NCBI GenBank assembly: GCA_963849325.1
Contig: CAWKHF010000004.1
Coordinates: 416,001 to 480,000, forward strand
Source: an uncultured Planctomycetota bacterium
GTDB taxonomy: Bacteria > Planctomycetota > Planctomycetia > Gemmatales > Gemmataceae
Direction: 5' to 3'
Length of the DNA: 64,000 nucleotides
A program made the position numbers. Positions 14,901-20,900 of the stretch are shown piece after piece; position 1 is the first letter of the stretch, and every line of letters begins with the position of its first letter.

Positions 14901-17900
14901 CTCTACGCGGCAGGCTGGTCGGCGGGCGGCGACGCCGGCGCGCGCATCGAGGTGGAGCCGTTCGACGCCGTCGTCAAGCGGCTGGACAAAAACGGCAACG
15001 GCAAACTCGAGTCCGAGGAGTTGAAGACCGGCCCGATCGCCGAGCGCTTTACCCAGGTGGACGTGGACAAGGACGGCTCCATCACGCGGCAGGAGTACGA
15101 GCGCTTCCGCGGGCTGTTCCGAGAGGGACGAAACGTCGTGCTGGCCATTCGTCCGGGCGGCACGGGGGATGCGACGGACTCGCACGTCGCCTGGAGGAAT
15201 ACTCGATACGTACCCTTCTGTGCCTCGCCGCTGTACCTCGACGGACTGGTGTACACGGTCAAGGACGGCGGCTTCCTGTCCAGCCTGGACGCCCGCGATG
15301 GCGAGTTGGTCCGGCGCGACCGGCTGCCGGGCGGCGGCAACTATTACAGTTCGCCGGTGGCGGGCGACGGCAAGATTTATCTGCTCAATGAACGAGGACG
15401 GCTGACGGTGGTGCAGGCCGGCCGCGACTGGCGGGTGCTCGGCGCCAGCGATTTCGAGGAGGATACCTACGCCACGCCGGCCATCGCGGGTGGACGGATC
15501 TATCTGCGCACCGCCGGTCATCTGTATTGCTTCGGGCTGCCGACGCCGTGAGCCGTACAAACTTCTGCCTCGGAACAGTTTGGCAAATCTGCGTACCATT
15601 CAACCGCTGCTCGCCTACTTCGGCCGCGAGTTGTCCAAGCCATGACCGTAAGAAGCTCCAAGAAGAAGAGCCTCACGCAAAGGCGCAAAGAACGCAAAGG
15701 AAAAGAGTAAAGAAAGGTCAAAACGGCTCGCGCCTATTATTTGTCTTTCTTTGCGTTCTTTGCGCCTTTGCGTGAGGCTCTTCTTCTTGTTCGTCGTCTC
15801 GGCGTTCGCTAAGTTAGGGGCGGGACCATCTCGCACCGGTCCACGCCTGCCTTCCCTGCCGAGACGCACTCGTGAACGACACTTCCGATTCCGTTGCGGT
15901 CCACGCGGCCCGGCCGACGCGCGTGCGGCACCTGGTCCTGGCGGCGCTGTGCGCCATTACGACCATCAACTACATCCAGCGCAACAGCCTCGGCGGCGCG
16001 GAGACGACGGTTCGCGCCGACCTCGAATTGACGAAACAAGACACCGGCGATGCGATGGGCGCCTTCTTCCTGACGTACGCCCTGTGTCAGGTGCCCAGCG
16101 GCTGGTTGGCCCAGCGCTGGGGCGGGCGACGCGCGTTGACGTGGTATGCGGCGGGCTGGTCGATCGTGATGGCGTTCACGGCCGCGGCCTCGAACTTGCC
16201 CGCCCTTATGAGTGCGCGCTGGGCGATGGGCGCCTTGCAGGCCGGCATTTTCCCCTGCTGCACGATGATCTTGGCCTCGTGGTATCCGGTCACGCGCCGC
16301 GGCTTCACCTCGGCCCTGCTCAACAGCTTCATGCTCAGCGGCGGCGTTCTCGCCTCCTGGATGACCGGCAAGCTGATCGGGCCACTGGGGTGGCGCTGGC
16401 TGTTCTTGCTGTATGCCCTGCCGGGCCTGGCGTGGGCCTACTGGTTCGCCCGATGGTTCCGCAATCGGCCCCAGGAGCATCCCTCGGTGAACCCAGCGGA
16501 GCTAGCGATCATTTCTCCGCGGACCGTCAACGTGCCGGCATCCAACGCCTTCGATTCCGGCCGGCCGGCCCAGAGCTTTGCCGACGCCGCGGAGCCAGAC
16601 GAAAGCATCGCGGCCAACCGAGAGGCGCTCTCGACCGAGCAATCCCCGAAGCCGCTCTGGGTTCGCGAGCGCGACGCCGAAGTCCGCGACCTGGTCCAGC
16701 GCAGTGCTGAAGCCGTCGATTCCCTGGGCCGCGATTTTCCTCAGTTCGGCGCTGTGGTTGATCTGCATCCAGCAATTCTGTCGATCCGGGCGCTGCGCTT
16801 CTTCGACATGTGGCTGCCAACCTACTTGCAGGAAGTGCGCGGTCAATCGGTGAAGGATGCCAATTATTTGACCAGTCTGCCGTTGTTAGCCGGCATGATC
16901 GGCGGTCCCGTCGGCGGCATTCTCTCCGATTTCGTGCTGGCGCGCACGAGAAGTCGCCGGGCCGCTCGGCAGGGCGTGGCCATCGGCGGCATCCTGGGGG
17001 GTCTGCTCGTCTACGTGCTGGCGTATCAAGTCTCGGACTTGACTGGGGCCGTGCTGCTCGCCTGCCTCGGCCTGTTCATCATGACGTTCTCCTCGCCCTG
17101 CGCGTATGCGCTGTCGATGGACATGGGCGGCCGCAATCTCGCGGTGATCTTCGCCATGATGAACATGGCCGGCAACCTGGGTTCGTGGGCCTTCACCAAG
17201 TTCGTTCCGCGCGTCGTGAACGGACGCGGCTGGGAGACTGCCCTGCTCATCTTCGCCGCCATGCACGTCGTCGCCATCGTCTGTTGGCTGCTGCTCAACC
17301 CTAACGGGATTATCGGCGAATCGGCCGACGCCATGACCGCTTCCAAGGAGTGAATATCAGGCTGGGCCAGTGGATCTGCTCTCTCGCGGGCGCTCTGGCC
17401 GCGATCTATCGTCTGGCCGGGGCCGCCGATCATTTGCAGCGCAAGTGATCCTCTTGCCCCGTGGAGAGAATCTTCGATTTTTGGTGAACCATTTGCCGCC
17501 GTCCGCGTCTATCCAATGTGTGAGGACGAGCGATCCCAGCAATGGATCGCGGAACCTGGTCCCGAGATGACAATGCATAAGGATTGCGGATTACGAAGGA
17601 AGGACCAATCGGCCAGGCATCTGGCTGATCGATGGGCGAATGGCCTCCCCGCTCATCCTCCGCGCTGGTGACACCAAGCTCCTTGGGAAAGGCGGCTTGC
17701 GAGGCCAGGTGTCACCACGAGATGCCTGGCCTTTTTGTTTGGGCTGGTAGCTGAGATGGTTGTAGCGGCGGTCTGAAGAACCGCAGACGAGGATTCGAGC
17801 GCCTCCCGGCCCACTCGGACAAATGGATTCGGTGTTCGGATCAGGAGAACAACCATGCCACAACTTTCTCGCTTCAAACGTCGCGCCCTCCCCTATTGGG

Positions 17901-20900
17901 GGTCGTGGCGTAAAGGCAGCGCACAAGTCTTTTAAACTTGGAGGTGTGGGTTCGACTCCCACCGGCCCCAATGCTCTGATGGACAGTGAATAGACAAGTC
18001 CGAGGTGTTAGCGGCAGCATAACCGGCTCCAACCCGGACGGTGAGGGTTCAAGTCCCTCCGGACTTGCTGATGATTGCTTGGCGACCGATGAGTCCAAGG
18101 TGTTAGCGGCAGCATTTTCGGCTCTTACCCGAACGGTGAGGGTTCAAGTCCCTCTGGGCTCACGGTTTGGATTGTCTTCGTGCAGCGTGTGGGGTAGCGG
18201 AGTGCCCGCCACCTCGGGAGGGTGGAGAACGCTGGTTCAAATCCAGCCACGCTGACTGTAATCATTGGCCCTCCGCTTCGTATCAGAGGATGGAGAGATC
18301 GCCGAGGTGTGGGGTAGCGGGAGTGCCCGCCTGCTTCGGAGGCAGGAGAACGCTGGTTCAAGTCCAGCCACCTCGACTTCGCCGCCCGGGCCGACCGCCC
18401 ACGGCCCGGGCGGCTGGCAGGGGCGAAGGCCCAGCTGCGCCAAGCGGCAGAGCGACCCGGCTTAAACCCGAGTGGATGAGGGTTCGACTCCCTCGCTGGG
18501 CAACGGCACGAATCCTACGGCCTGCAAGCTCAAACAGTTCGAGCAGCCGGTTGTCAACCGGAAGGGTGCGGGTGCGAGTCCCGTGCGGGCCGCTGCAACG
18601 ATTGCGGAGTGGACTGGAGGCAGTTTCCAGCACGGTCTCATACGCCGTCCGACGCCGGTGCAACTCCGGCCTCCGCAACTGATTTCGGGTAAGAGGGCCG
18701 AGTACGCAAATCCGGCAAAGCGGCCAGGTCGAGAGCCTGGTGATCGATTGCGGGTTCGACTCCCGCCTCGGCTACTGATGACAGAAGGATGTCCGCGGTC
18801 GGCAGGAAAGACAGGCCGGGCGCCCGCGCCGATTGTCGTCTGTCGCCGGCCCTTCTGCATCGTGGTCCCGTAGTTCAACGGCTTGAACACCCGGCCCACA
18901 TCCGGGGACGAGATGGTTCGACTCCATCCGGGATCACTGTCGGGTTGCTCGTCCAAGGGAAAGACGCCGGTATCGCAAGCCGGAAATCGGGGTTCAACTC
19001 CCCGGCGGTCCATTGACATGGGGCCTATCGTCCAACGGGAGGACGCCAGCTCGGCAGACTGAAAATCCGGGTTCAATCCCCGGTGGGTCCACTCTCCCTT
19101 GTCACCCCGATGGTGAAATGGACATCATCCCTCGCTTCGAACGAGACGTTCTGGGTTCGACTCCCGGTCGGGGTAATTCCGTATTCTCCCCTCTCCTCCG
19201 GCCAGGAAGCCGCCCCCTGGTGGGGGAATAGCCCGCTTTGCTTCACGGCGTCCAGACCCTCCCGCAGTTCAGTCCGCAACCGACGCTCGATCTCTTCCTT
19301 GCGGGAGTCGTACCCAAAGATTGCCTCAGCGCGTGCGAGGGTCCACCACAGGGAGCGTTCCTCGGCGGATTCACCCGGATACTCGTCGAGATGAATGCGA
19401 TGGTTCGGGGGTCGCTCCTCGTTCAAGGCTCGCAAGGCGGCGGCGGCCTCCGGCAAGGACAAGCGCCCCTCGATCAAATCGACGACGACCGCTTCCATCG
19501 CCTTCGAGTTCGCCTGCACGAGTTCACCATCCTCCTGGAGACGTTCGCGGTCCTGGGCCGTCTGCCACCAGTCGGCGAAGGCTTGTCGGCCGTCAGTGGA
19601 CAAGGCGATGCCGGCGTACAGTACAATCGGCAGCGAGGCCGTGAGCGCGAGAAACCGGAATGCTACCGTCATTCTGCGTACCCCCAAAAAGGCAGCGGGG
19701 TCCGACCGTCATTCACCGCTATTCTGATAAACGGCCGAAAGAGCTGTTTGGAGACAGGGCAGGATGCGATTCTCCGCGCCGACGCGAAATGAACTCCGGA
19801 TGTCGAGCCGGTTGAGAGAGGAAGAGATGGTGAAAAAGGATGCGAGCGGAGGCGACAGAACGGCAATTGAACTTTTTATCGCCGGCATCCAGGGCTGGGA
19901 AGCCGGCTTGCGGCAGATTATCTCGGGGAAATCGAGCAGCGACACGCAATCGTAAATCATTGTGTGATCTTTGCTTCCGAACAGACTCTCGGCATGGAGG
20001 GCCGACCGCGCGGCAGTCTACCCAGAAATCGACTCTTACGAATCTCATCTCCCGCGCCGATTCCTCCAATCCGCTCATCCCCCTCTGATCGGCGTATTCG
20101 GCAGGACCATACCGCTCCTTTCCTCTTGCCGCCAGTACGAGACGGTACGAACATGAGGATATGGCCTTCCCCTGGTGGTTCCTCCTCGGTCTCAACCGCA
20201 TGAAACTCTTCTCCGCGATCCGTTGGGTTCTCCGCCTCCTCTTGCTGCCCCGCAGCCAACTCGTCCTGGAGAATCTGGCCCTGCGTCAACAACTGGCCAT
20301 CTTCAGCCGACAGCGGCCACGACCATCGCTGCGCCGCCGCGACCGACTCTTCTGGATCTGCCTATCGCGGTGGTACTCAGGGTGGCGCTCAGTATTGGTC
20401 CTCGTACAACCGGACACGGTCCTCCGCTGGCACCAGCAGGGCTTCCGTCTGTGGTGGCGCTGGAAGTCCCGGAGGAAGCGAGCGGGGCGTCCGCCGCTGG
20501 ACAAGGAAGTCCGTGACCTCATCGGCCGCATGGCTCGTGAAAACCCGACCTGGGGCGTTCCGCGTATCCGGGCCGAACTGCGCCTGCTGGGCCATGACGT
20601 CGCCGAAGCCACCGTGGCCAAGTATCGGCCGCAGCCACGTCATCCCAAGCCGCCGTCGCAGACCTGGCGGACATTCTTGAGGAACCACGCCGGCACGCTG
20701 GCTTCGATGGATTTATTCGTGGTGCCCACGATCACATTTGATCGGCTCTGCTTGCCCATCGCGTCGTAGCCAGCGCTGCCCGTTCGAGTGGAAGTCAGCG
20801 TCATTCGCCCTGGACTCCTTCTTATCCTTGTCCGTCACCGTTGTAAGAATAGGTGTAGGTAGCGATCGGACCTCGCGTGTCCTCCGCGAGGGGCGCCAGC

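What a model noticed while it worked through the whole genome (the two positions that open the first line are those of the whole stretch)
17741..19175. Array-borne tRNA-Leu genes without the long variable arm; arrays hold the only uninterrupted Asn, Leu(UAA) and Leu(CAA) [...]
G000 has 35 tRNA genes in four clusters: C1:515629-516193, C4:433741-435175, C12:838476-839555 and C5:1106033-1106278. Of the 32 genes in the three large arrays, most are only 55-77% identical to the dispersed set. The exceptions are Ser(GGA), 85% identical to the mini-array Ser(CGA), and Leu(CAG), 94% identical to C7:207740. The array tRNAs with Leu anticodons CAA (C1:516042-516115) and UAA (C4:434429-434502) are 74 nt long with a 5-nt variable region, unlike any normal bacterial tRNA-Leu. 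The arrays contain the only uninterrupted genes for Asn(GUU), Leu(UAA) and Leu(CAA).
Evidence so far: - ARAGORN list. - Rfam confirms the three large arrays (34 tRNA matches over the scanned loci, call 24). The two short Leu genes score 40.0 and 41.5 bits. - Identities and sequences: call 74. - The same gene order occurs as single arrays of at least 20 and 23 tRNAs in G016 and G006. - The interrupted housekeeping genes are in the findings above.
(Added by a program. Inside this text positions count along the whole contig: contig position 416,001 is position 1 of the stretch shown here. "Call 12" and the like, gene names such as g00115 and contig names such as C1 are that model's own, and its searches are not shown. 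The text may have been shortened before it was handed on; [...] marks where a part breaks off. The agent that wrote the report below was given it as the finding of a first reader that could run no searches.)

Follow-up and report, generated by a model that had tools for sequence, protein, structure and literature searches.

The report
Short-armed leucine tRNAs in tRNA array
A cluster of 13 spare tRNA genes in a soil planctomycete carries leucine tRNAs that lack the usual long extra arm; these are conserved and probably working parts of such clusters, not decay, and a Streptomyces precedent shows that a bacterial enzyme can charge this kind of tRNA.

Summary
Window 17741-19175 (+) carries 13 tRNA genes (ARAGORN), all above Rfam's tRNA cut-off. 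Leu(UAA) at 18429-18502 is 74 nt with a Leu-type D arm, A73 and a 5-nt variable loop. Leu(GAG) at 18696-18775 has a stemless reduced arm of about 9 nt.

These genes are not decaying. They belong to three conserved families found in planctomycete tRNA arrays, in viral contigs and as single genes. All three show compensatory stem changes. Anticodons stay within the Leu set in searches that did not fix the anticodon. In the same arrays Ser and Tyr tRNAs keep their arms.

They are not without precedent. Streptomyces coelicolor has a type I tRNALeu(CAA) that its LeuRS charges (PMC6614811). In one complete planctomycete genome the short form is the only Leu(UAA) gene found.

The back-up idea is weak. 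Two of the three interruptions are group I introns absent from 5 relatives searched, and the arrays are older than they are.

New here: a conserved leader with a terminator-like hairpin and a short reading frame lies directly upstream of this and many other arrays.

The parts
15872..17353 (+). MFS transporter gene, the conserved left-hand neighbour of the array
   Evidence: Pfam MFS_1, E 2.9e-45. blastn and tblastx find the same gene upstream of the arrays of G006, G002 and G007.
17470..17740 (+). Conserved array leader of about 270 nt with no Rfam family
   Evidence: Alignments A4 and A5 with G006, G002 and G009. nhmmer profiles hit directly upstream of the first tRNA of many other arrays. 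Rfam in E-value mode gives only a chance miRNA hit at E 1.5.
17567..17671 (+). Candidate leader reading frame: 34 codons plus TGA, ending ...HPPRW*
   Evidence: Read from the sequence. In 10 of 13 array leaders an ATG-started frame of 31-45 codons ends at the homologous TGA, with ...PLRL*...RLRL* or ...PLRF*. Translation is not shown.
17667..17675 (+). Candidate antiterminator strand (GGTGACACC) overlapping the leader stop codon
   Evidence: It can pair with the 5' arm of the terminator-like hairpin. In alignment A6, 95.2% of cells pair, against 51% or less when the partner is slid. Only one pair covaries, and the shuffle control is not significant.
17701..17740 (+). Terminator-like hairpin (13 pairs) plus T run, ending at the first base of tRNA-Phe
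   Evidence: Pattern scan. Conserved in 13 array leaders, with compensatory changes in 3 of 13 pairs.
17741..17814 (+). tRNA-Phe(GAA)
   Evidence: ARAGORN; Rfam 52.8 bits.
17899..17970 (+). tRNA-Lys(UUU)
   Evidence: ARAGORN; Rfam 67.3 bits.
17996..18068 (+). tRNA-Trp(CCA)
   Evidence: ARAGORN; Rfam 45.3 bits.
18091..18163 (+). tRNA-Lys(CUU)
   Evidence: ARAGORN; Rfam 48.8 bits.
18183..18256 (+). tRNA-Pro(GGG)
   Evidence: ARAGORN; Rfam 51.7 bits.
18303..18377 (+). tRNA-Pro(CGG)
   Evidence: ARAGORN; Rfam 56.2 bits.
18429..18502 (+). Type I (short variable loop) tRNA-Leu(UAA), 'family B'
   Evidence: 74 nt, Leu-type D arm, A73, 5-nt variable loop, one C.A mismatch in the anticodon stem. Rfam 41.5 bits. 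82.9 bits to model R1. Covariation in alignment A1.
18519..18593 (+). tRNA-Asp(GUC)
   Evidence: ARAGORN; Rfam 48.7 bits; G73.
18696..18775 (+). Reduced-arm tRNA-Leu(GAG), 'family C': about 9 unpaired nt in place of the arm
   Evidence: 80 nt, A73. Rfam 45.2 bits. Covariation in alignment A3.
18864..18937 (+). tRNA-Val(CAC)
   Evidence: ARAGORN; Rfam 49.6 bits.
18942..19012 (+). tRNA-Ala(CGC) with G3:U70
   Evidence: ARAGORN; Rfam 43.3 bits; acceptor strands printed.
19021..19092 (+). tRNA-Ala(GGC) with G3:U70
   Evidence: ARAGORN; Rfam 44.1 bits; acceptor strands printed.
19104..19175 (+). tRNA-Arg(UCG), last gene of the array
   Evidence: ARAGORN; Rfam 50.8 bits.
20161..20769 (+). Transposase-like HTH fragment in the variable right-hand flank
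   Evidence: Pfam HTH_32 (E 1.7e-6) and HTH_21 (E 4.5e-5), both below their curated cut-offs. The right flank has no match beside the arrays of G002, G006 or G007.

Best explanation
The 13 genes are one of three fragments of a planctomycete long tRNA array (L-array). An L-array is a supernumerary, divergent tRNA operon. This one has been kept at a fixed chromosomal site in this Gemmataceae genus.

Its Leu(UAA) gene is a type I tRNALeu, meaning one with a short variable loop. Its Leu(GAG) gene is a reduced-arm form. Both belong to conserved families that are regular parts of planctomycete arrays and of some viral tRNA clusters.

They most likely work as ordinary leucine tRNAs. They keep every element that bacterial LeuRS is known to read outside the arm: A73, U8-A14, A15-U48 and the G18G19 D-loop layout. 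Bacterial LeuRS does not read the anticodon. For Streptomyces, charging of a type I tRNALeu has been shown.

The arm was lost only in Leu because LeuRS, unlike SerRS, tolerates the loss.

The operon is probably entered by read-through of a conserved terminator-like hairpin in a leader RNA, so it is conditionally expressed.

Shown here: the structures, their conservation, covariation, anticodon restriction and distribution. Inferred: charging, decoding and regulation.
For: 1. Anatomy.

2. Redundancy and divergence. All 13 anticodons also have a dispersed gene. Identity to those genes is 60-70%.

3. Compensatory evolution.
- Alignment A1 (17 short Leu from 10 genomes): 98.9% of 348 cells paired; 16 of 21 pairs changed on both sides; 0 of 500 shuffles reached this; 54% or less paired when the partner is slid.
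- Alignment A3 (15 family C genes): 99.7% paired; 11 of 21 pairs changed on both sides.

4. Identity elements. T8, A14, A15, G18G19, the base before the T stem (U48) and A73 are invariant in A1. These are the E. coli leucine identity elements listed in PMC9976931.

5. Leu anticodons only.
- D-arm and V-loop signatures that do not fix the anticodon, applied to 383 ARAGORN calls, pick 9 of 9, 6 of 6 and 14 of 14 genes with Leu anticodons. One family carries five different Leu anticodons.
- All 60 hits to model R1 above 64.5 bits carry Leu anticodons; 43 of them were not used to build the model.
- An anticodon-free pattern scanned over GTDB species genomes matched at least 120 stretches, of which 80 loci were fetched. 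These held 76 overlapping tRNAs: 74 Leu, 1 ambiguous, 1 Met. Ten loci had no tRNA.

6. Arm loss is specific to Leu in array loci with 8 or more tRNAs (the three sets may overlap).
- Leu of 81 nt or less: 27 of 39, 16 of 22 and 141 of 165.
- Ser of 81 nt or less: 1 of 17, 0 of 7 and 0 of 63.
- Tyr of 81 nt or less: 3 of 6, 0 of 7 and 3 of 30; five of these six are 81 nt.

7. G061 (one contig, 99% complete). Of its 44 Rfam tRNAs, the long-arm Leu genes are CAA, UAG, CAG and GAG. The only Leu(UAA) is 73 nt, and no group I intron was found.

8. Precedent: PMC6614811. The window gene is 69-72% identical to single actinomycete Leu(CAA) genes of the same design.

9. Fixed site: the MFS gene lies upstream of the array in 4 congeners.

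10. Leader.
Against: - Charging depends on the enzyme. According to PMC6614811, E. coli LeuRS and one Streptomyces LeuRS do not charge the S. coelicolor type I tRNALeu. The LeuRS of this genome could not be judged, because its gene is read in three frames in the assembly.
- The window Leu(UAA) has a C.A mismatch in the anticodon stem and the lowest Rfam score of the array.
- There are no expression data.
- In the complete Gemmataceae genome G033 a full long-arm Leu set exists beside the array copies, so no need for the short forms is shown within this family.
- The G061 argument rests on gene finding alone. Use of UUA codons there was not checked.
- Most loci were picked because they hold a short Leu, so the share of short Leu genes is biased upward. 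The Ser and Tyr contrast is not biased.
- Model R1 includes the anticodon columns, which favours Leu anticodons by a few bits.
Confidence: 0.72

Rival explanations
1. Back-up set. The array copies exist to supply Asn(GUU), Leu(UAA) and Leu(CAA) because the housekeeping genes for these are interrupted.
For: - In this assembly the arrays hold the only intron-free genes for the three isoacceptors.
- UUG and AAC are common codons, at 13.2 and 23.2 per 1000 in 1115 long reading frames.
- G007 and G009 have the 26-nt insert in Leu(CAA) and also carry a short array Leu(CAA). G002 and G006 lack the insert and carry CAG in that family.
Against: - Two of the three interruptions are group I introns. The Leu(UAA) intron has canonical splice-site features, and removing it in silico gives an 86-nt Leu(UAA).
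- RF00028 found nothing in 5 of 5 relatives searched, so the introns are recent. The array sits at the same site in 4 congeners.
- The other 10 isoacceptors of the window array back up nothing.
- The interrupted Leu(CAA) gene is 92-97% identical across 5 congeners and its insert is a conserved hairpin, which suggests the gene still works.
- G005 has the insert but no short Leu scoring above 59.5 bits. G001 has the insert and a CAG copy.
- Redundancy may instead have allowed the interruptions to settle.
Confidence: 0.12
2. Decaying pseudogenes. The short Leu genes are broken remnants in a silent array.
For: They have the lowest Rfam scores of the arrays, at 40.0 and 41.5 bits. The window copy has one stem mismatch. 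In Anabaena, 3 of 26 array genes are pseudogenes (PMC8421152).
Against: - Compensatory changes keep all four helices.
- The same designs recur across many families of the phylum, in viral contigs (11 of 11 pattern matches are Leu tRNAs of 74-78 nt) and as the only Leu(UAA) gene of G061.
- Anticodons stay within the Leu set.
- The general Rfam model is penalised by the unusual D arm and the 6-bp anticodon stem, not by damage.
Confidence: 0.04
3. Counter-defence or toxin-escape set. This is compatible with the best explanation. Mobile arrays and phages carry arm-less Leu tRNAs because these escape nucleases, transferases or other toxins that recognise long-arm (type II) tRNAs. They would keep Leu decoding alive when the host set is attacked.
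For: - Short Leu tRNAs are typical of arrays and also occur in viral contigs.
- Mycobacterial tRNA array units are discussed as putative antidefence systems (PMC12803027).
- Listings (titles and abstracts only) name enzymes that prefer long-arm tRNAs: SLFN11 and MenT3.
- Most arrays keep just one long-arm Leu, usually CAG.
Against: No planctomycete toxin with this specificity is known to me. Ser tRNAs in the same arrays keep their arms, although SerRS would force that. Single housekeeping type I Leu genes in actinomycetes and in G061 need no such explanation.
Confidence: 0.15
4. Another identity. The short tRNAs are charged by a synthetase other than LeuRS and recode Leu codons.
For: Charging is untested. 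Some LeuRS enzymes reject type I tRNALeu.
Against: - Five or six different anticodons sit on one body, which calls for an enzyme blind to the anticodon.
- G3:U70, the AlaRS mark, is absent: position 3:70 is C-G or U-G in A1.
- SerRS needs the long arm and G73 (PMC7609411), and these tRNAs have A73.
- The D loop is of the Leu type.
Confidence: 0.03

Closest known systems
Type I tRNALeu(CAA) of Streptomyces coelicolor (Fan et al. 2019, PMC6614811; passages read)
   Same: - A bacterial tRNA with a Leu anticodon, a 5-nt variable loop and a U8-A14 pair.
- Its variable loop is ACAGC. Single actinomycete genes that match my family B pattern have ACAGT or CCAGT.
- The window gene is 69-72% identical to those genes.
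- It is charged by a normal bacterial LeuRS.
   Different: - There it is a single housekeeping gene with one anticodon (CAA).
- Here there are families with UAA, CAA, CAG, GAG, UAG and AAG anticodons inside supernumerary arrays and viral clusters, plus an intermediate form with 6-10 unpaired nt.
- I did not see the S. coelicolor sequence itself.
- Charging by a planctomycete LeuRS is untested.
L-arrays, e.g. the trn operon of Anabaena sp. PCC 7120 (Santamaria-Gomez et al. 2021, PMC8421152; abstract, sections 21 and 22 and passages read)
   Same: A dense run of supernumerary, divergent tRNA genes. The paper names Planctomycetes among the phyla that have L-arrays. The arrays are thought to be an inducible subset of the tRNA set.
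   Different: - In this genome the array is split into three pieces of 7, 13 and 12 genes.
- In the parts I read, the paper does not mention arm-less Leu tRNAs; 'Leu' as a word start occurs 0 times in its main text.
- Anabaena regulation is by 9-nt repeats over the promoter. Here a structured leader with a terminator-like hairpin precedes the first tRNA.
tRNA array units (Tran et al. 2016, PMC4758250; passages read)
   Same: High tRNA gene density. The window has 9 genes per kb, against the threshold of 2 per kb.
   Different: The unit is defined as at least 20 genes. The window piece has 13. Relatives have 20-45 in one run.
Animal mitochondrial tRNALeu
   Same: Short variable loop. Identity is set mainly by A73 and A14 (PMC9976931).
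   Different: Mitochondrial forms have degenerate D and T loops and a dedicated LeuRS. The genes here keep the canonical G18G19 and TTC loops.
Ribosome-dependent transcription attenuators (trp-type and antibiotic-sensing leader peptides; recalled from general knowledge)
   Same: A short leader frame whose end overlaps a strand that can pair with the 5' arm of an intrinsic terminator just upstream of the regulated genes.
   Different: The regulated genes are tRNAs. No run of regulatory codons is evident. Nothing has been tested.

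Membership tests
L-array / tRNA array unit | Many tRNA genes in a dense run: at least 20 genes and at least 2 per kb (PMC4758250) | tested here: inconclusive
   The window piece has 13 genes in 1435 bases, so the density criterion is met and the number is not. With the C1 and C12 pieces the total is 32. Relatives with related gene order have 20, 23, 29 and 45 genes in one run.
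L-array / tRNA array unit | Genes are supernumerary to a dispersed housekeeping set and differ from it | tested here: met
   All 13 anticodons also have a dispersed gene, 12 uninterrupted and 1 with an intron. Identity to those genes is 60-70%.
L-array / tRNA array unit | Spread by horizontal transfer | tested here: inconclusive
   Related arrays occur in many families of the phylum, and related short Leu genes occur in viral contigs. This copy, however, sits at a conserved chromosomal site in 4 congeners. Only the right flank is variable, and it holds a transposase-like fragment.
L-array / tRNA array unit | Silent in normal growth and induced under translational stress | not testable with these tools
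   No RNA run holds the stretch. The leader with a terminator-like hairpin is only suggestive.
Bacterial type I tRNALeu (S. coelicolor type) | Leu anticodon on a tRNA with a short (5-nt) variable loop | tested here: met
   At 18429-18502 the anticodon is UAA and the variable loop is U44 plus GGAU, 5 nt in all.
Bacterial type I tRNALeu (S. coelicolor type) | U8-A14 and the D-loop/T-loop elbow bases are present | tested here: met
   T8, A14, G18G19 and the TTC of the T loop are invariant in 17 of 17 sequences of A1.
Bacterial type I tRNALeu (S. coelicolor type) | Leucylated by the organism's single LeuRS | not testable with these tools
   There is one LeuRS locus in G000. Indirect support only: the sole Leu(UAA) gene of G061 is of this type.
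Canonical bacterial type II tRNALeu | Variable arm of more than 10 nt that forms a helix | tested here: not met
   The variable region is 5 nt in Leu(UAA) and about 9 unpaired nt in Leu(GAG). The dispersed Leu genes of G000 have 14-16 nt with a 3-5 bp helix.
tRNA pseudogene | No selection on the cloverleaf; broken helices; free drift of the anticodon | tested here: not met
   98.9% and 99.7% of cells are paired, and 16 and 11 of 21 pairs covary. Only Leu anticodons were found.
Leader-peptide transcription attenuator | Intrinsic terminator between the leader and the regulated genes | tested here: met
   A 13-pair hairpin plus T run ends 0-88 nt before the first tRNA in most arrays examined. It is conserved in 13 leaders, with compensatory changes.
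Leader-peptide transcription attenuator | Alternative antiterminator pairing controlled by a translated leader frame | tested here: inconclusive
   The pairing is possible in 95.2% of cells but rests mostly on invariant columns. A frame ends at the homologous TGA in 10 of 13 leaders, plus G000 read by eye. Conservation of the peptide cannot be separated from conservation of the RNA.

The most novel reading that the evidence does not exclude
Planctomycete L-arrays are stress-switched spare translation kits built to survive attack on the host tRNA pool. A conserved leader-peptide attenuator directly upstream of the first tRNA would sense impaired translation and open the operon. The leader's stop codon overlaps the antiterminator strand, and its last sense codon is mostly the Leu codon UUG. 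The Leu tRNAs in the kit would have shed the long variable arm, the one class II arm that the synthetase lets them lose, because that makes them invisible to enzymes that pick out long-arm tRNAs. The same design travels in phage tRNA clusters.
Probability: 0.15. Interest if true: 0.85.

Novelty: new variant of a known kind. Interest (0 to 1): 0.55.

Why it matters
[quoted passage not shown] The only bacterial exception I found in print is one Streptomyces tRNA (PMC6614811).

Here arm-less or reduced-arm Leu tRNAs form the majority of Leu genes in the planctomycete arrays examined. They occur with all Leu anticodons, appear in viral contigs, and in one complete genome are the only Leu(UAA) gene.

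This is a natural test of identity rules: the arm is lost where LeuRS tolerates the loss and kept where SerRS needs it.

The practical points are these:
- It warns against filing such genes as pseudogenes in annotation.
- It offers natural compact Leu tRNA scaffolds.
- The conserved leader gives a testable handle on how L-arrays are switched on.

Tried and rejected
- Expression. The look-up of sequencing runs on window 17000-20000 listed 24 runs, none on record as RNA and none holding more than 0.08 of the sampled words: no RNA holder listed. I did not lay reads.
- Named phages and plasmids. blastn (distant mode) with the 74-nt Leu(UAA) gene found no match at E 0.001 or better in either collection. 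A 74-base query has little power in collections of this size.
- Rfam on the leader gave only a chance miRNA hit at E 1.5.
- LeuRS. I looked for a second LeuRS or a special domain. There is one locus, read in three frames in this assembly, so I did not analyse its leucine-specific domain.
- Need within the family. In the complete Gemmataceae genome G033 all five long-arm Leu isoacceptors exist, so the short forms are redundant there.
- ARAGORN with intron search over the whole genome gave scores of implausible long-intron calls. I used only those backed by Rfam tRNA or group I intron matches.
- Antiterminator covariation. The shuffle control was not significant: 27 to 231 of 500 shuffles reached the observed values.
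- Literature. Searches found no paper on arm-less Leu tRNAs in arrays, phages or Planctomycetes, and none on a leader attenuator before tRNA arrays. Only listed titles and abstracts were seen for most hits. Subscription journals and the supplements of PMC8421152 and PMC4758250 were not seen, and the supplements may list such tRNAs.

Full report
**1. What is there**

The window is G000:C4:416001-480000 of an 8.16-Mb, 65% G+C assembly in 14 contigs. Its trigger factor is 82% and 78% identical to those of two Gemmataceae MAGs, so the organism is a member of the Gemmataceae (Planctomycetota).

ARAGORN finds 13 tRNA genes head to tail on the + strand at 17741-19175. Rfam's tRNA model matches all 13 above its cut-off, at 41.5-67.3 bits against a cut-off of 29. 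A housekeeping tRNA-Lys(UUU) at 3710-3783 scores 79.8 bits.

The Rfam scores quoted for the two short Leu genes (41.5 and 40.0 bits) are reproduced.

The 13 window tRNAs are 60-70% identical to the best dispersed gene of the same isotype. Every one of their anticodons also has a dispersed gene.

Discriminator bases fit the anticodons. Both Ala tRNAs have G3:U70 and A73. Asp and Trp have G73. The others have A73. The rules themselves are recalled, and for Leu are given in PMC9976931.

**2. The Leu genes**

Leu(UAA) at 18429-18502 is 74 nt. It has a 3-bp D stem, an 11-nt D loop of the kind seen in this genome's long-arm Leu tRNAs, a 6-bp anticodon stem with one C.A mismatch, four free bases before the T stem (five counting position 44), and A73.

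Leu(GAG) at 18696-18775 is 80 nt, with about 9 unpaired bases in place of the arm.

The C1 Leu(CAA) is 74 nt and built like Leu(UAA). The C12 Leu(CAG) has a normal arm. It is 94% identical to the 'dispersed' C7:207740, counted by eye from the rows.

**3. Relatives**

The array DNA finds matches in 38 of 61 genomes of the family, order and class, G000 included. ARAGORN on 20 fetched loci gives 291 tRNAs in arrays of up to 45 genes.

The short Leu genes fall into three recurring designs.
- Family A has D region GGCAAnnGGCAGACC and variable loop ATGCT. It carries anticodons CAA, CAG, GAG, UAA and UAG. The G000 C1 gene belongs here.
- Family B has D region CGCCAAnnGGYAGAGCG and four free bases. 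Among the relatives' loci every member carries UAA; the wider scan also found CAA, CAG, GAG and UAG. The window Leu(UAA) belongs here.
- Family C has D region CGCAAAnnGGNAAAGCG and 6-10 free bases. It carries anticodons GAG, CAA, UAG and UAA. The window Leu(GAG) belongs here.
- All three have A73.

**4. Are they under selection?**

On an alignment of 17 family A and B genes from 10 genomes:
- 98.9% of 348 cells form pairs in the cloverleaf;
- 16 of 21 pairs show changes on both sides;
- 0 of 500 shuffles reach any of the five measures;
- sliding the partner by 1-3 columns leaves 54% or less paired.

For 15 family C genes the figures are 99.7% paired and 11 of 21 pairs. Four of the five measures were reached by 0 of 500 shuffles. 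The count of further pair types was reached by 173 of 500.

T8, A14, A15, G18G19, the base before the T stem (U48) and A73 are invariant in the first alignment. These are the elements given for E. coli leucine identity. According to the same review, neither the long arm nor the anticodon is needed there (PMC9976931).

**5. Is the identity leucine?**

Picking genes by anticodon and then noting that they have Leu anticodons would be circular, so I used three searches that do not fix the anticodon.

(a) Regular expressions for the three D-arm and V-loop signatures were run over all 383 ARAGORN calls of G000 and the 20 loci. They pick 9, 6 and 14 genes, and all 29 have Leu anticodons.

(b) A covariance model of the 17 genes (R1) was searched over 53 sources and crossed with the ARAGORN calls.
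- All 60 hits above 64.5 bits have Leu anticodons; 17 were training genes and 43 were not.
- At 64.5 bits two Leu(UAG) genes tie with three Phe(GAA) genes.
- The model contains the anticodon columns, which gives Leu anticodons a few bits of advantage.

(c) An anticodon-free pattern for family B was scanned over one genome per GTDB species.
- ARAGORN finds 76 tRNAs over the matches: Leu UAA 34, CAA 30, CAG 5, GAG 4, UAG 1, one with an 8-nt loop, and one Met(CAU) in a Paceibacterota MAG.
- 10 loci have no tRNA there.

One body carrying five anticodons, all of them Leu, is what an anticodon-blind synthetase under selection against mistranslation would give. G3:U70 is absent. SerRS needs the long arm and G73 (PMC7609411).

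**6. Arm loss is specific to Leu**

The table counts genes of 81 nt or less in array loci with 8 or more tRNAs.

| Set of loci | Leu | Ser | Tyr |
|---|---|---|---|
| First set | 27 of 39 | 1 of 17 | 3 of 6 |
| Second set | 16 of 22 | 0 of 7 | 0 of 7 |
| Third set | 141 of 165 | 0 of 63 | 3 of 30 |

Five of the six short Tyr genes are 81 nt and one is 76 nt.

The three sets may share genomes. Most loci were chosen because they hold a short Leu, so the Leu share is inflated. The Ser and Tyr figures are not affected.

**7. Distribution**

The model finds top-scoring short Leu genes in many families of the phylum (151 genomes searched). Some are in arrays. Some are in Leu-only groups: L053 has UAG, CAA, UAA and AAG in a row. 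Some stand alone.

The named hits are mostly Planctomycetota: Pirellulales, Planctomycetaceae, Thermoguttaceae, Gemmataceae and Isosphaeraceae, and the cultured Stieleria magnilauensis with two arrays. There are also single Leu(CAA) genes of 74-77 nt in actinomycetes (Streptomonospora, Actinopolymorpha, and Streptosporangiaceae and Frankiaceae MAGs) and in Chloroflexota MAGs.

In IMG/VR, 11 of 11 pattern matches are tRNAs of 74-78 nt with Leu anticodons. Nine of these 11 lie in tRNA clusters and two are the only tRNA in their locus; two of the cluster loci look like the same virus.

**8. A complete genome that depends on one**

G061 is a single contig of 3.1 Mb, 99% complete, from another family of the phylum. 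It has 44 Rfam tRNA matches.

I fetched the ten long ones and the short Leu. The long ones are Ser x4, Tyr, a long-arm Cys, and Leu CAA, UAG, CAG and GAG. The only Leu(UAA) is the 73-nt gene.

RF00028 finds no group I intron in G061 or in four other genomes with single short Leu(UAA) genes. So UUA there is most likely read by a type I tRNALeu. This is an inference from gene finding.

By contrast, the complete Gemmataceae genome G033 has all five long-arm Leu isoacceptors beside its array copies.

**9. Precedent**

Fan et al. 2019 (PMC6614811; abstract and passages read) report the following.
- S. coelicolor has four long-arm tRNALeu and one type I tRNALeu(CAA) with variable loop ACAGC.
- Its single LeuRS charges both types.
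- The 5-nt length of the loop matters.
- E. coli LeuRS and one other Streptomyces LeuRS do not charge the type I form.
- The leucine-specific domain of LeuRS is responsible for the ability.

The single actinomycete genes in my scan have ACAGT or CCAGT at that place and are 69-72% identical to the window gene. I did not see the S. coelicolor sequence itself.

So the design is known and chargeable, but charging depends on the enzyme. The LeuRS of G000 is one locus (C6:455532-458237, -) that the assembly reads in three frames, so I could not judge it.

**10. The back-up idea**

The other Leu(UAA) gene has a 218-nt insert exactly between U34 and A35. The exon ends in U and the intron ends in G. 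Removing the insert in silico gives an 86-nt long-arm Leu(UAA). Rfam's group I intron model scores it 35.1 bits, below the cut-off of 50.

The Asn gene has a 664-nt group I intron (56.6 bits) with a LAGLIDADG-like reading frame. The family name of that frame is recalled from its motif. Group I introns splice themselves, so these genes are probably functional.

RF00028 finds nothing in G002, G004 and G008 (same genus) or in G013 and G033 (same family). The window-type array sits behind the same MFS gene in G002, G006 and G007. The array therefore predates the introns.

The Leu(CAA) case differs. The 26-nt insert is present in G000, G001, G005, G007 and G009 and absent in G002, G003, G004, G008 and G012. 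The interrupted genes are 92-97% identical to the G000 gene, and the insert is a 5-bp hairpin with a variable loop. That looks like a maintained feature rather than damage.

G007 and G009 have a short array Leu(CAA). G001 has a short Leu(CAG). G005 has no R1 hit above 59.5 bits, but it is in 420 contigs.

Codon use in 1115 long reading frames with GC3 of at least 0.8 is UUA 0.77, UUG 13.2, AAC 23.2 and AAU 5.2 per 1000.

The back-up reading is therefore not excluded for Leu(CAA). It explains 3 of 32 array genes at most, and the direction of cause may be the reverse: redundancy may have let mobile introns and inserts settle.

**11. A leader in front of the arrays**

The 270 bases before tRNA-Phe are conserved in G006, G002 and G009. 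They end in a 13-pair hairpin with a T run that abuts the first base of the tRNA.

A profile of this leader hits directly upstream of the first tRNA of arrays in nine further loci. A profile of 13 leaders adds L030, L130, L147, L152, L033, L171, L038, L155 and L149 at E of 4e-4 or better. In eight of these nine the next tRNA on the strand starts 0-88 nt downstream; in L171 it starts 293 nt downstream. That output also lists the same places under second locus ids, and three weaker hits.

The hairpin is kept in all 13 leaders, with both-sided changes in 3 of 13 pairs.

Upstream, a conserved TGTGACACC can pair with the 5' arm of the hairpin. 95.2% of cells pair, against 51% or less when slid. There is one covarying pair, and the shuffles are not significant.

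Its TGA is the stop of an ATG-started frame of 31-45 codons in 10 of 13 leaders, ending in PLRL, RLRL or PLRF. In G000 the variant GGTGAC ends a 34-codon frame at 17567-17671, read. Two leaders were not resolved.

This is the layout of a ribosome-dependent attenuator. There is no room for a promoter between the hairpin and the tRNA, so the array must be entered by read-through.

Peptide conservation and RNA conservation cannot be told apart here, and nothing has been tested. Rfam has no family for the leader. In Anabaena, regulation is by 9-nt repeats at the promoter (PMC8421152, section 22).

**12. Verdict**

The interpretation needs three corrections.
- The short Leu tRNAs are a conserved and probably functional class, not decay.
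- They have a published bacterial precedent.
- The back-up relation is weakly founded.

What appears to be new, within the literature I could search:
- type I and reduced-arm tRNALeu are the usual Leu genes of planctomycete L-arrays and occur in viral tRNA clusters;
- arm loss is confined to the one class II isotype whose synthetase allows it;
- these arrays share a leader with a terminator-like hairpin.

Noticed in passing
L045:1795-1906 (G000:C6:820794-820905); alignment A2: The housekeeping tRNA-Leu(CAA) has a 26-nt insert in the anticodon loop. The insert is shared by 5 of 10 genomes compared (G000, G001, G005, G007, G009), with 92-97% identity to the G000 gene over the whole gene. It forms a 5-bp hairpin (ATCAT/ATGAT) with a variable loop. 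It is too short for a group I intron, and I know of no bacterial mechanism for removing it.
   Followed up: partly
L253:31-169 and L254:31-142 (G033); G000:C1:476146-476235: Other Gemmataceae housekeeping tRNA genes have short inserts in the anticodon region by ARAGORN: Cys(GCA) with 50 nt and Arg(CCG) with 20 nt in G033, and a 90-nt gene in G000 (Rfam 54.2 bits) read either as Met(CAU) with a 20-nt insert or as having a 4-base anticodon.
   Followed up: no
L046:2640-2711 (G000:C2:189639-189710): A 72-nt tRNA with anticodon UUA, which would read the stop codon UAA. It has A73 and scores 52.7 bits in Rfam.
   Followed up: no
L047:2193-2280 (G000:C6:234192-234279): An 88-nt tRNA with a long variable arm (5-bp helix), an 8-bp acceptor stem as drawn by ARAGORN, and anticodon AGC (Ala). 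Rfam 53.3 bits.
   Followed up: no
L082:29-111 (G061); L033:6778-6861 (G021); L076 (G067): tRNA-Cys(GCA) genes of 83-85 nt, that is with a long variable region. They occur both dispersed and in arrays. L076 holds a tandem repeat of Leu, Tyr and Cys units.
   Followed up: no
L213-L216 (G000:C6:455532-458237, - strand): The only LeuRS locus matches the bacterial LeuRS model in pieces that switch between three reading frames. The assembly therefore has indel errors or the gene is broken. This may also explain the 84.7% completeness of a 14-contig assembly.
   Followed up: partly
window 49479-49620 (+): Group II intron domains 1-4, Rfam RF02003 at 99.2 bits.
   Followed up: no
window 14054-14109; L042:4540-4601; L043:9380-9436: A palindromic repeat of about 57 nt inside the PQQ-repeat gene of the window is 85-89% identical to copies lying 30 nt from the C1 array and 2.8 kb from the C12 array.
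   Followed up: no
L044 (G000:C5:1106208-1106278); L030:4459-4529 (G049); L034:3395-3470 (G012): Rare arm-less genes with Ser(GCU) anticodons (71 nt) and one 76-nt Tyr(GUA) gene occur in arrays. SerRS should not charge the Ser-anticodon ones, so they may be dead or have another identity.
   Followed up: no
L033:3480-10052 (G021:C62): One array has 45 tRNA genes in 6.6 kb, more than the 'up to 43' quoted for L-arrays in PMC8421152.
   Followed up: no
L001 (G000:C3:92897-93633, - strand): The group I intron in tRNA-Asn(GUU) carries a LAGLIDADG-like reading frame of 82 codons that looks cut short. Neither this intron nor the Leu(UAA) intron was found in 5 relatives, so both look recently acquired.
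   Followed up: partly
window 27200-36982 (-): An open reading frame of 3260 codons lies 8 kb to the right of the array.
   Followed up: no
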